Origin: the human T2T-CHM13v2.0 reference genome, Homo sapiens
Assembly: GCF_009914755.1 (NCBI RefSeq)
Contig: NC_060930.1
Length of the DNA stretch: 64,000 bases
Direction: 5' to 3' (one strand)
In this document: positions 24,096 to 38,359 of the stretch, piece by piece
Numbering within the stretch: position 1 is the stretch's first letter
Layout: every line of letters begins with the position of its first letter
Notes under the pieces: model-generated
What the model was told of the DNA's origin: nothing
The model's input: the letters and a program-made list of their open reading frames with translations, nothing else
Database searches by the model: none
Position numbers and translations under genes: made by a program

Positions 24096-25095
24096 GCTGG
24101 GTAAAATTTTATTTGCTACTTAAGTAATGGTAAAAATTATCAGAGTATTGAACAGAAATTGGCTAAATTCTTAAATTAAAAAAAACTTATGTGTTAGTAC
24201 TCCATAGCACCATTACATTTTATCAAGTCTAAATCACTACGAATGACAAGACCAATTATTTTAGGTGCCACAAAAATAATTTTAAGATTATAAGATAAAT
24301 TTCAATTTCAGAGAAGTTAAAATATGAAAATATATGCAATGTAGAATTGAAAAAATGCAGTATTTGGTACCTATCACTCTCTAGCTTATATCATTGTTGC
24401 GTGTGTGTAGGGGTGTGTGTGTGTGTCTTATTTGTCCTGCTAAAATGTATGCTCTTTGAAGGCAGCACATAAAAAAAAAAAAGGTAAGTATTCAAGAAAT
24501 ATAGATTAGATGAGCTTTTTATTATAAGAAACATTTCTACATTAAGCAATACTAAAAAAACAAATGATCTTGCTCAGTGCCTAAGTATTACCAAATGAAA
24601 ATTAAAGCCACCTTATTCATTAAAGCACTGAGATGACAACAAAATGACTCCTAAAGGCATCGAATTTAAAAAAAAGAATATATAACATTTGGACCCAAGA
24701 GCCAGTGAAATCTGACAGCTAATAAATGAGGCAAGAGAAAGATACACGTACTCCGAGAGAGAACAATACAATCTGAAGCCATTTAACATAGAAGAAAACA
24801 GCCACGTCTATTCCCAAGGGCTCCTAGAGGCATCACAGTATATGGCACAGAACTATTAAGTGAATCATAATAAAAATGTTAAACTATGCTTACTAAAGGT
24901 ACACTTAATAGTTGCTAGGAATATTTATTTCTTAAAAAAATATTTACACAAAAGCAAACATTTATCCCCATGGGGATAAATTTTAGTTATTTAAAAAATA
25001 TATCCAGAATATTCTGTTCCCCAGTGATGTCCAACAAAGGAGCATGATTATACTAGATAACTGTAGAAAATGATACTGGAAGTACTACTTCTTAC

Positions 25096-25191
25096 TGTAA
25101 TTGAAATGCCAAGGCCTTCATGATCTTCCTTAAGGAGGAGAACTTTTCTAATTGGACCAACACCTTGGCTTTTCTTTAGGGAATCTTGATC
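25096..25191 (-). CDS. GOPC: GOPC exon 6 (start of PDZ, DQDSLKK...EGLGISIT)
   Basis: Acceptor aataAG, donor ACA|GTAAGA; 96 nt; GLGI carboxylate-binding loop. Confidence 0.96.
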
Positions 25192-36300: not shown

Positions 36301-36461
36301 TTGTTGTGGTTTTAATTAAAATTTCCTCATTGCTAATAAGGTTTAACTGCCTTTTCATATGTTTATTGACCATTTGAATACCCTCTTTTGTGAAGTACCT
36401 GTGTTAGTCTCTTGCCTATTTTTCTAGAGAGTTGTCCATATTTTTCTTGGTGGTTTGTAAG

Positions 36462-36509
36462 TTCTCTCTCTCTCTCTCACTCTCTCCCTCCCTCCCTCTG
36501 CCTCCCCCC

Positions 36510-36552
<43 letters not shown>
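36462..36552. repeat. (CT)n / C-rich tract plus (CA)~20 microsatellite
   Basis: Direct reading; uninterrupted CA run at 36512-36552. Confidence 0.95.
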
Positions 36553-36553
<1 letters not shown>

Positions 36554-36556
<3 letters not shown>

Positions 36557-37557
36557 TAGAGGCAGGAGGCAGAGAAATTCTAGGCAGATGGGGGTGTGTC
36601 CTCGGCAAAACCCCATCTTCAAGCCTAAAAGCTGAAGCCCAAAGTGAGAACTTCCATCCCTGTGTGCCCACTCTCTCCCGACTGGTTCTTTCTGAAAAAG
36701 GTCTTTTTACCAATCAAATGTTGTTTTTTCTAAAACTACCTATGGCCTGCCCTGCCCCCCATCCTGTGCCAGTAAAGACCCCAGACTCAGCCAGTAGAGA
36801 GGAGAAGCAGCTGGACTTCGGGCACAGGCATCATGACTTCAGAGATGGTAGCTGGACATCGGAGAGAGGCAACTTGACTTCAGGGGAGAGTGACATGCCC
36901 TTCCCATCCCCTTTCCAGCTCCCCTCTCTGCTGAGAGCCACTTTCATCACTCAATAAAATTCTCTGCATTCACCATCCTTCAATTCATGGATGAAGGATG
37001 GTCAATGCAGAGAATTTTATTGAGTGAATGAAAGTGGCTCTCAGCATGAATTCACATTACCTCATTCTTCGTGGGCACCAGACAAGAATTCGGGACCCAC
37101 CAAGTGCAGGTACCCAAAAAGGCTATCACACTGGCCCTCTGCCCTTACTGGTGGAGGGCAGCTGCCCCCAAAAAGGCAAAAGGTGCAGTGAGCTGATAAT
37201 ACACTTCTGTCCAGCAGAGCTAAGAGAACCTTGTAACATGCCCTCTGGAGCCTTGGGATCGCAGGCACCCAGACCTGGATGCTGCCACAGGGCCTGCATG
37301 GAGTTTGCTCCTGCAGGTACTAAAGCAGCTGGCCAGTTCCTACACCTGCTTGCCTACACACTCCCTCCCATGAGGGGTGGAGTGCAGCAGACCCAAGTGA
37401 ACCAAGTTTGCTCCTGCCAGTGCCAAAGCAGCCAGCCAGTTCTCATACTCGTTTGCTCGTGTGCTCCCACCTGCCAGGAGTTGAGCAGGGTGGGCTGAGT
37501 AAACAGGGCACCCCTGTCGTGAGTACCATGAAGGTGTCAAGAAAATATCCTGCATCA
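36554..37557 (+). mobile_element. Solo ERV1 LTR, ~1 kb (LTR28/LTR1-like)
   Basis: TGATAGAGGCAGGAGGCAGAG...tcctgcatCA termini, CCAAT and GC-box-like elements, AATAAA 36953-36958, flanks acat/atat. Confidence 0.8.
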
Positions 37558-38359
37558 ATATGAACTCCTTTATTGGGTGTGAGTTACAAATACCTTCTCC
37601 CATCCTGTGGCTTCTTTTCACTTTATAAATGTGTATTTCAATGAACAGAGTGCTTAATTTTAATGCAGCTCATTACGTTAATAGTTTCCTCCCCAACACT
37701 AAATGCTTTTTTGGCATGAGTTCTACCTTATCTGGTATCAAGTTTGCAACTCCTGTCTCATTTTGTTTGCAATTTACTCAGTATAATTTTGTCTGATCTT
37801 TTGTTTTTAGCCTTTCATCCTATTTGTCATGTTATATTTGTATATAACATAATACACATGTAAAGTCGTCATCGCTCTCTTTGGTGGCTTTAAAAATGTA
37901 CCTTTTTTTAATCTTCTGGAAGCTCTGTATCTTTGCTCTAATGATTACTGTGACATTATATCCTAATTTCCTCTTTTGACTGTATTTTAAGGTATTATCT
38001 TTAAGGTATTATCCCTTCTATGAGAACTCATGAAATTAGCTAGTTGACATCTCACTTCCCTCACTCTTCTCAAACATTTAACAAAGTGTTATCCTTCTAT
38101 TCCCAGCTAATAACTATGAGTGATCATCAAGCTTATTTCACATTTTCAGAATACTCTTCTCCCATTTTGAGAATTGAAAACAAAATCTATATTGCAGCAC
38201 ATATAGCATTCAATATTATTCCATCATCTTTAACTCCAATAGTCTTTGTTCTGCTATTAAATATATTCTATTCTCAGTACCAGACCTTTAATCAAAGCTA
38301 CTCCAATGATTTCAGCTCATTCCCAGGAATAGATTTATCAGAAAGGTTTCTTTGGATTA

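What the first reader, a model, noticed from the sequence alone, without database searches (positions are those of the whole stretch)
36929..37046. 118-bp near-perfect fold-back inside a solo LTR that pairs up its polyA signal
Seen: left arm 36929-36982 (54 nt) and right arm 36992-37046 (55 nt) are reverse complements with one mismatch and one 1-nt bulge, around a 9-nt loop. The left arm holds the LTR AATAAA (36953-36958). The inverted copy creates an AATAAA on the GOPC sense strand (TTTATT 37016-37021). The junction sequences caattcatg and catgaattc are near-reverse complements, as expected from template switching. Inference: a local inverted duplication after LTR insertion produced a ~54-bp dsRNA stem in GOPC intron 1 pre-mRNA. 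It is a candidate Drosha/Dicer or ADAR substrate, a structure-gated intronic polyA site, or a DNA cruciform.
Basis: partly seen in the sequence, partly recalled or inferred. Interest (0 to 1): 0.7.

Follow-up and report, generated by a model that had tools for sequence, protein, structure and literature searches.

The report
Private inverted duplication in old LTR
A 63-base stretch of an ancient retroviral solo LTR in GOPC intron 1 was copied backwards next to itself, giving a real and strong hairpin that is most likely a harmless replication scar.

Summary
The fold-back is real. Arms 36929-36982 and 36992-37046 pair with one mismatch and one extra base around a 9-nt loop. The fold is far stronger than any of 200 shuffles, as RNA (-93.9 kcal/mol) and as DNA.

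It lies in a 1,004-bp solo LTR (36554-37557, sense on +, antisense to GOPC) of an old class I family. That family has TG..CA ends, 4-bp target duplications and a proline-type primer site. The LTR is roughly 40-55 My old at a recalled rate.

The loop-plus-right-arm block (63 nt, 36987-37049) is absent from 22 of 22 other copies, so it is a private, later, local inverted duplication. Its first bases copy the stretch that spans the insertion point, which fits replication template switching, a mechanism already in print. The arms are far too alike to be as old as the LTR (P about 0.001-0.02).

No Rfam family, annotated gene or transcript end supports a function. The exact Repbase/Dfam name (LTR1/LTR28 was guessed) could not be verified. 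HUERS-P-like is the best label. Every functional reading remains untested.

The parts
36554..37557 (+). Solo LTR of an old class I (ERV1-type), proline-primer, HUERS-P-like family. It is 1,004 bp, including the private 63-nt insert. Its sense strand is + and so antisense to GOPC.
   Evidence: Start and end are set by local BLAST against the saved copies (modes 36554 and 37557). The TG...CA ends are shared with 20+ copies. Orientation comes from the chr12 provirus, which has a purine tract before its 3' LTR and a primer site after its 5' LTR.
36550..36553 (.). Left copy of the putative 4-bp target-site duplication (ACAT).
   Evidence: It matches the right copy at 3 of 4 bases. Clean 4-bp duplications are seen at 8 other copies.
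37558..37561 (.). Right copy of the putative 4-bp target-site duplication (ATAT).
36929..36982 (+). Left arm, the original LTR sequence. It carries the family's usual base at both places where the arms differ.
   Evidence: In 51 of 54 columns the window's base is the one held by at least half of the 22 other copies. The remaining 3 columns are polymorphic in the family (36-48% share).
36953..36958 (+). The LTR's own AATAAA.
   Evidence: It is present at the same place in 16 of 21 other copies.
36983..36991 (.). The 9-nt loop of the fold-back.
36992..37046 (-). Right arm, the inverted copy of 36929-36982. It holds one substitution and one extra base, both derived on this arm.
   Evidence: It matches other family copies only on the opposite strand.
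36987..37049 (.). The private 63-nt insert as placed by the multiple alignment. The bounds are ambiguous by about 3 bases because short words recur at both junctions.
   Evidence: 0 of 22 other copies have a base in these columns; 21 of 21 other copies run straight across.
37016..37021 (-). AATAAA created on the GOPC-sense strand by the inverted copy.
   Evidence: Read. It is one of 29 AATAAA and 20 ATTAAA on that strand in intron 1. No annotated 3' end lies here.

Best explanation
An old class I endogenous retrovirus inserted here tens of millions of years ago and later collapsed to a solo LTR. Much later, probably a few million years ago, one replication error copied about 55-60 bases of the LTR, including its AATAAA, in reverse complement and placed the copy 9 bases downstream. 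The source of the copy ran a few bases past the insertion point. This is what a switch of the growing strand to the opposite template and back would leave (a template-switch mutation).

The result is a 54-bp near-perfect hairpin in the DNA and in GOPC intron-1 pre-mRNA. It most likely has no dedicated function. At most it would be an incidental duplex that RNA-editing enzymes could touch.

Shown: the structure, its privacy to this copy, its local origin, its youth relative to the LTR, and the class and age of the LTR. Inferred: the template-switch path, and neutrality.
For: - Structure.
- Privacy: the insert is absent in 21 of 21 copies at the junction and 0 of 22 copies have bases in its columns. 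Only the window itself spans both junctions, among the 40 scored of 197 candidates.
- Local origin: the right arm shares the left arm's state at all 3 columns where the window holds a minority state, and at the columns split about 50:50. The best other copies are 93% identical or less over the arm.
- Copy spans the insertion point: the first 9 bases of the insert are the reverse complement of the 9 bases across the junction in uninterrupted copies. The match is exact in L023 and 8 of 9 in L013 and L020 (read).
- Youth: there is 1 substitution in 54 pairs, where 9.4 would be expected if the copy were as old as the LTR (P<=1 = 0.0009). With the arm's own slower local rate the expectation is 6.0 (P = 0.017). 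The point estimate is about 10% of the LTR's age.
- Mechanism in print (PMC10710096; abstract and sections 5, 9 and 15 read): template switches make whole hairpins in one event. Events of 28 and up to 83 bases are described. The paper counts 53,666 putative events in genic regions on the primate-to-human lineage. Only 57 of 6,054 miRNA-sized hairpins (0.9%) are annotated miRNAs.
- No sign of function: no Rfam family reaches its gathering score, and there is no gene, functional element or transcript end here in RefSeq.
Against: - The exact switch path is not resolved. A straight fold-back copy would hold 5 more bases next to the loop, and 3 bases (37047-37049) at the far junction are unexplained. 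Either more than two switches or a later slippage must be assumed.
- The pre-duplication state is inferred from paralogous copies. No other primate genome could be reached, so no orthologue was compared.
- Arm-to-arm gene conversion could keep the arms alike, so their similarity dates the event only loosely.
- Neutrality is an absence-of-evidence argument. No expression, small-RNA, editing or 3'-end data could be consulted, and the supplementary locus lists of the template-switch papers were closed.
- Whether the insert is fixed in humans is unknown.
Confidence: 0.78

Rival explanations
1. The hairpin is a working RNA element. It would be a young, unannotated small-RNA precursor (miRNA-like or endo-siRNA-like), or a duplex whose editing or sensing affects GOPC pre-mRNA.
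For: A 54-bp near-perfect stem would form in the intron of an annotated gene. Print says template-switch hairpins in introns have become miRNA genes (PMC10710096 abstract). Sub-threshold Rfam hits to long-hairpin miRNA models fall exactly on it.
Against: All Rfam hits are far below gathering (best 61.5 bits against 230). They fall on both strands and match unrelated, mostly plant-named models, so they reflect hairpin shape only. There is no MIR gene in RefSeq for this window. The stem of 54 bp and loop of 9 nt miss the printed preference of about 35 bp and 10 nt or more. The printed base rate is 0.9%.
Confidence: 0.07
2. It is a structure-gated intronic cleavage and polyadenylation site for GOPC. 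The new AATAAA on the GOPC strand would be used when the stem is melted or edited.
For: AATAAA is present on the GOPC-sense strand at 37021-37016, inside the stem.
Against: The hexamer is one of 49 AATAAA/ATTAAA on that strand in this 22,940-nt intron. None of the 3 annotated GOPC transcripts ends there. It is buried in a -94 kcal/mol stem.
Confidence: 0.02
3. The insert is not a fixed human feature. It would be an allele private to, or rare beyond, the CHM13 source, or an assembly artefact.
For: Only one human assembly could be read. The dating interval reaches down to about 0.1 My.
Against: The arms differ by a substitution and an extra base. A fold-back read artefact or a brand-new event would more likely be perfect. 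A position just outside the insert, 37052, seems to have changed since the copy was made, because the copy keeps the family's usual base there. The reference is a finished telomere-to-telomere assembly.
Confidence: 0.08
4. The inverted arm is an ancestral feature of the LTR family, or a fragment of another copy of the family that inserted backwards.
For: The arm region is the best-conserved part of the LTR, so other copies are up to 93% identical to it.
Against: 0 of 22 other copies carry it. The local left arm is the closest match, with 53 of 54 plus one gap. The insert also copies bases on the far side of its own insertion point.
Confidence: 0.02

Closest known systems
Template-switch mutations that create hairpins in one step (PMC10710096; also bioRxiv 10.1101/2021.04.15.439925, seen only as a search listing with the start of its abstract)
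   Same: A reverse-complement copy of adjacent sequence is inserted next to its source. The stem is near-perfect from the start. The site is intronic. The length (55-63 nt) lies within the printed range of 28 to 83 bases.
   Different: The parent state is inferred here from paralogues, not from a reconstructed orthologous ancestor. The event lies inside a repeat, a class the printed polymorphism screen excluded (section 9). The junctions need an extra slip or an extra switch. There is no evidence of expression as a small RNA.
HUERS-P supergroup of class I HERVs. HUERS-P2 goes with LTR1/LTR28 and HUERS-P3 with LTR9, per PMC5753468 Table 4 and PMC4724089 (passages).
   Same: The primer site is proline-type. 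The divergence between a provirus's two LTRs is 20.6% and 25% as raw differences, inside the printed 18-32%. There are about 36 LTR-leader junctions, against a printed count of about 50 HUERS-P2 copies. The polyA signal lies mid-LTR, as printed for LTR1.
   Different: Print places the LTR1 TATA box at 175 and the polyA signal at 425. Here a TATA-like word is at 206-231 (14 of 21 copies) and AATAAA at 385-439. No leader match falls in the two printed full-length HUERS-P2 places as I map them. The LTR, at about 940 bp, is longer than the printed 666-bp LTR9.
Long intronic RNA duplexes such as inverted Alu pairs, which adenosine deaminases edit (recalled general knowledge; no call)
   Same: It is an intramolecular duplex well over 30 bp in a pre-mRNA intron.
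   Different: It is a single short perfect hairpin of 54 bp, not a pair of about 300-bp repeats. No editing data were seen.

Membership tests
Solo LTR of a class I (ERV1-type) endogenous retrovirus | TG...CA termini shared with many dispersed copies | tested here: met
   The start word occurs 468 times genome-wide at up to 1 mismatch, against 1 for the control.
Solo LTR of a class I (ERV1-type) endogenous retrovirus | 4-bp target-site duplication (the size-to-class link is recalled knowledge) | tested here: met
   Clean 4-bp duplications are seen at L003, L006, L007, L008, L013, L015/18, L002/27 and L030, and around the chr12 provirus. The window copy matches at 3 of 4.
Solo LTR of a class I (ERV1-type) endogenous retrovirus | The same unit flanks an interior that starts with a primer-binding site and ends with a purine tract | tested here: met
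   The chr12 provirus (L022 and L016) shows a shared duplication outside, a purine run before the 3' LTR and a primer site after the 5' LTR.
Solo LTR of a class I (ERV1-type) endogenous retrovirus | No interior next to this copy | tested here: met
   The right flank of the window copy does not resemble the shared leader.
HUERS-P supergroup | Primer-binding site complementary to tRNA-Pro | tested here: met
   20 junctions were compared with 49 annotated tRNA genes. Pro gives the best mean, 11.45 of 15 (maximum 13), and the next is Leu-CAA at 9.9. Pro is top in 12 of 20 junctions and tied for top in 2 more. The lead is modest because the sites are decayed.
HUERS-P supergroup | Divergence between a provirus's two LTRs in the printed 18-32% range | tested here: met
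   20.6% over 878 sites for the chr12 pair, and 25% over 192 sites for the partial chr11 pair.
HUERS-P supergroup | Placement by the polymerase gene tree | not tested
This needs inner genes, which are outside what this report may use for naming.
Repbase/Dfam LTR1 or LTR28 | Significant match to the family consensus or HMM | not testable with these tools
   No repeat library is on hand. Harada 1987 (PMC306459) is not held.
Repbase/Dfam LTR1 or LTR28 | TATA box at 175 and polyA signal at 425 of the LTR1 consensus (PMC4094622, passages) | tested here: inconclusive
   Here the TATA-like word is at 206-231 and AATAAA at 385-439. The layout is similar but the spacing differs (about 175-180 against 250).
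Template-switch mutation | Inverted fragment of 15 nt or more that is the reverse complement of nearby sequence (criterion in PMC10710096, section 5) | tested here: met
   The fragment is 55 nt, with 53 of 54 matches and one gap.
Template-switch mutation | Fragment absent from the parental sequence at the same locus | tested here: inconclusive
   It is absent from 22 of 22 paralogous copies. No orthologue could be read.
microRNA precursor | Match to a curated family, or an annotated MIR gene | tested here: not met
   No Rfam hit reaches gathering. There is no MIR gene in the RefSeq table for the window.
microRNA precursor | Stem of about 35 bp with an apical loop of 10 nt or more (PMC10710096 introduction) | tested here: not met
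   The stem is 54 bp and the loop 9 nt.
microRNA precursor | Discrete small-RNA reads from the arms | not testable with these tools
Cleavage/polyadenylation site of GOPC | Hexamer plus an observed transcript 3' end | tested here: not met
   The hexamer is present. No annotated transcript ends here. 3'-end sequencing data could not be tested.

The most novel reading that the evidence does not exclude
A hominid-age or younger template switch turned the polyA region of a 40-55-My-old LTR into a 54-bp perfect duplex inside a broadly expressed host intron (the expression breadth is recalled). That duplex would now be processed as an unannotated small-RNA source or a hyper-edited site. It would be a very young case of new RNA-gene raw material born inside a retroviral remnant, a class of locus that the printed genome-wide polymorphism screen masked out.
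Probability: 0.07. Interest if true: 0.5.

Novelty: new member of a known kind. Interest (0 to 1): 0.25.

Why it matters
This is a clean, well-bounded case of a one-step hairpin birth. The source and the copy are both visible, and 22 paralogous copies give the state before the event. That makes it a useful worked example of template switching inside a repeat, where published polymorphism screens did not look. If small-RNA or editing data showed processing, it would add a very young case to the idea that such events seed new RNA genes. Otherwise it is a neutral scar in an intron and has no known bearing on GOPC.

Tried and rejected
- Ancestral palindrome: rejected, 0 of 22 copies carry it.
- Second genomic copy of the junctions: none found among the 40 scored of 197 candidates.
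- Rfam: 31 sub-threshold hits and none at gathering. Those on the hairpin are generic long-hairpin models on both strands.
- Bacterial promoter/terminator scan: irrelevant for human DNA and at shuffle level.
- Relative dating by private substitutions shared by both arms: no power. The left arm has only 3 weakly minority columns of 54.
- Naming from print:
  - No paper joins GOPC with the LTR terms. The top 10 of 30 listed all have 0 GOPC occurrences.
  - Only 4 papers hold two or more LTR1/LTR28 subfamily names, and I opened none of them further for a locatable element.
  - Harada 1987 is not held.
  - The printed LTR1 landmarks fit only loosely.
- Cross-check against the two printed full-length HUERS-P2 places: I mapped them to this assembly by flanking genes (the older-assembly gene positions are recalled). 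No leader hit and no exact start-word hit (only the first 100 of 468 listed) falls there. This is weak evidence against LTR1 proper.
- One search stopped with a division error after printing part of its table. One search repeated it with two rows dropped: L014, misaligned around an insertion (K2P 0.56), and L099, where only 192 bases matched.
- Corrections to my notes: they say 20 copies for and 13 copies with a TATA-like word. The outputs show 21 and 14.
- Supplementary tables of the template-switch papers, which may list this locus, were closed.

Full report
**1.

The sequence at 36929-37046 is a fold-back. The left arm is 36929-36982 (54 nt), the loop 36983-36991 (9 nt) and the right arm 36992-37046 (55 nt). 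Aligning the left arm with the reverse complement of the right arm gives one mismatch and one extra base in the right arm. The pairing does not extend outward. The repeat finder sees the same structure as a 36-nt block at 97% and a 19-nt block at 100%.

The GOPC-sense RNA folds at -93.9 kcal/mol, against -34.4 +/- 3.8 for 200 dinucleotide shuffles (z -15.5, none as good). The + strand as DNA folds at -59.1 kcal/mol (z -14.5). In the whole 64-kb window it is the only strong inverted repeat of 25 nt or more with arms within 200 nt.

The AATAAA at 36953-36958 and the mirrored hexamer at 37016-37021 are as stated.

**2. The host element is a solo LTR**

A search of the window's own genome with 36560-37560 gave 123 matches, from 40 scored of 1,907 first-look candidates, at 68-83% identity. 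Local BLAST against the saved loci puts the ends of the repeat at 36554 and 37557.

All copies begin with the same TG-word and end with the same CA-word. Eight solo copies show clean 4-bp target duplications. The window copy has ACAT/ATAT, a match at 3 of 4. The start word typed from the window occurs 468 times in the genome at up to one mismatch, against 1 for the reversed control.

One pair of copies on chr12 (outer bounds 63288623-63297859, minus strand) is a provirus:
- The same 4-bp word lies outside both LTRs.
- A purine run lies directly before the downstream LTR.
- A shared leader follows the upstream LTR.

This fixes the sense of the LTR. In the window it is the + strand, antisense to GOPC. 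The window copy has no leader after it, so it is a solo LTR. It lies in intron 1 of both NM_ transcripts, 3,625 nt from the exon-2 acceptor and 19,199 nt from the exon-1 donor.

**3. Family**

I compared the bases after the LTR in 20 LTR-leader junctions with the last 15 encoded bases of one annotated tRNA gene for each of 49 anticodons. tRNA-Pro is best, with a mean of 11.45 of 15 and a maximum of 13. The next is Leu-CAA at 9.9. Pro is top in 12 of 20 junctions and tied for top in 2 more.

A 4-bp duplication goes with class I elements (recalled knowledge).

What print says:
- It ties proline-primer elements called HUERS-P1 to P3 to LTR8, LTR1/LTR28 and LTR9 (PMC5753468 Table 4, passages; PMC4724089, passages).
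- It gives the HUERSP supergroup an LTR divergence of 18-32% and calls it one of the oldest groups.

The two LTRs of the chr12 provirus differ at 20.6% of 878 sites. A partial chr11 pair differs at 25% of 192 sites. Both are inside the printed range. I found 36 LTR-leader junctions, and print speaks of about 50 HUERS-P2 copies (PMC4094622, passages).

Against the exact label LTR1:
- That paper puts a TATA box at 175 and the polyA signal at 425 of the LTR1 consensus. Here a TATA-like word sits at 206-231 in 14 of 21 other copies, and AATAAA at 385-439 in 16 of 21.
- None of my leader hits falls in the two printed places of full-length HUERS-P2 elements as I map them by flanking genes. That mapping uses recalled gene positions in the older assembly.
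- LTR9 is printed as 666 bp, which is shorter than this unit of about 940 bp.

I therefore call it a class I, proline-primer, HUERS-P-like LTR. The exact name needs a repeat library or the inner genes, and I stop there.

**4. Age of the LTR**

I made no consensus. Against 22 other distinct copies the window LTR has a mean K2P distance of 0.232 (range 0.203-0.270). Without the 122 CpG-prone columns it is 0.174. The 230 pairs among the others average 0.252 (0.196 without those columns). The proviral LTR pair gives 0.250 (0.197).

Half the pairwise distance is 0.116 (0.087 without CpG-prone columns). An independent count agrees: the window holds a minority base at 102 of 864 well-covered columns, or 11.8%.

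At 2.2e-9 substitutions per site per year (a customary rate, recalled) this gives 40-53 My for the window copy and 45-57 My for the provirus. At 1e-9 the figures double. The element is real, old and thoroughly decayed.

**5. The fold-back is private and later than the LTR**

- At the junction, 21 of 21 other copies run straight through.
- In the full alignment, 0 of 22 have a base in window columns 36987-37049, a gap of 63 nt.
- The right arm matches other copies only on the opposite strand.
- Only the window itself spans both junctions.
- Both arm differences are derived on the right arm, because the left arm keeps the family's usual base.
- The arms hold no CpG (read).

If the copy were as old as the LTR, 2 x 54 x 0.087 = 9.4 differences would be expected, and one substitution is seen (P<=1 = 0.0009). 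With the arm's own lower rate (3 of 54 minority columns) the expectation is 6.0 and P = 0.017. The point estimate is about 10% of the LTR's age, roughly 4 My. The Poisson interval runs from 0.3% to 59%, or up to 93% with the local rate. Arm-to-arm conversion could make the event look younger than it is.

**6. How it arose**

The alignment places a clean 63-nt insertion between 36986 and 37050.
- Its first nine bases (36987-36995) are the reverse complement of the nine bases that cross this point in uninterrupted copies. The match is exact in L023 and 8 of 9 in L013 and L020.
- So the source of the copy was this same locus before the event, and it ran a few bases past the insertion point.
- The copy also keeps the family's usual base opposite 37052. 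The window now has a base there that only 2 of 20 others share, so that change seems to be later.
- The copy then continues into the reverse complement of the left arm, but skips five bases where a 4-base word is repeated.
- Three bases (37047-37049) before the return are unexplained.
- Short words recur at both junctions: AATTCA on each side, and the 8-base palindrome TGAATTCA at the right one.

This is the signature described for template-switch mutations (PMC10710096, abstract and sections 5, 9, 15). The exact points cannot be fixed without an orthologue that lacks the insert.

**7. What it does**

Nothing checkable points to a function:
- No Rfam family reaches gathering. The hits on the hairpin are shape-only matches to unrelated long-hairpin models on both strands.
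- RefSeq has no gene, functional element or transcript end there.
- The stem and loop miss the printed Microprocessor preference.
- The new AATAAA is one of 49 such hexamers on the GOPC strand of the intron and lies inside the stem.
- Print gives the base rate. Of 6,054 miRNA-sized template-switch hairpins on the human lineage, 57 (0.9%) are annotated miRNAs.

A 54-bp duplex in a pre-mRNA is long enough to be touched by editing enzymes (recalled knowledge). That would be incidental.

**8. Verdict**

The structural interpretation (a post-insertion local inverted duplication, with template switching likely) is supported. The family name is unverified and the functional ideas are untested. The finding is a new member of a known kind and of modest interest.

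Noticed in passing
window 36457-36553: A compound (CT)n / C-rich / (CA)n microsatellite abuts the 5' end of the LTR. It is the only stretch here that the reference masks (36457-36590). The left copy of the target duplication is its last four bases, which may explain why the duplication matches at only 3 of 4.
   Followed up: no
window 37302-37353 and 37405-37456; 36809-36842 and 36850-36883: There are two internal direct repeats in the LTR: 52 nt at 77% identity, 103 nt apart, and 34 nt at 82%, 41 nt apart. Secondary BLAST pieces shifted by about 100 nt in many other copies suggest that the first is a family feature and not private.
   Followed up: partly
L006:963-1087 (chr2 copy): Another copy of the family has its own private extra stretch of about 60 nt, some 60 nt downstream of the place where the window copy has its insert. 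It holds a small 9-nt inverted repeat with an 8-nt spacer.
   Followed up: partly
window 36554-37557: The reference's soft-mask list (stretches of 100 bases or more) does not cover this 1-kb LTR, although the genome holds hundreds of copies. The 'masked repeat' rows are therefore not a guide to old LTRs here.
   Followed up: no
window 24940-25001: This is a weak AT-rich palindrome (32-nt arms, 75% complementary) near GOPC exon 25096-25191. It is the only other close inverted repeat that the window-wide scan returned.
   Followed up: no
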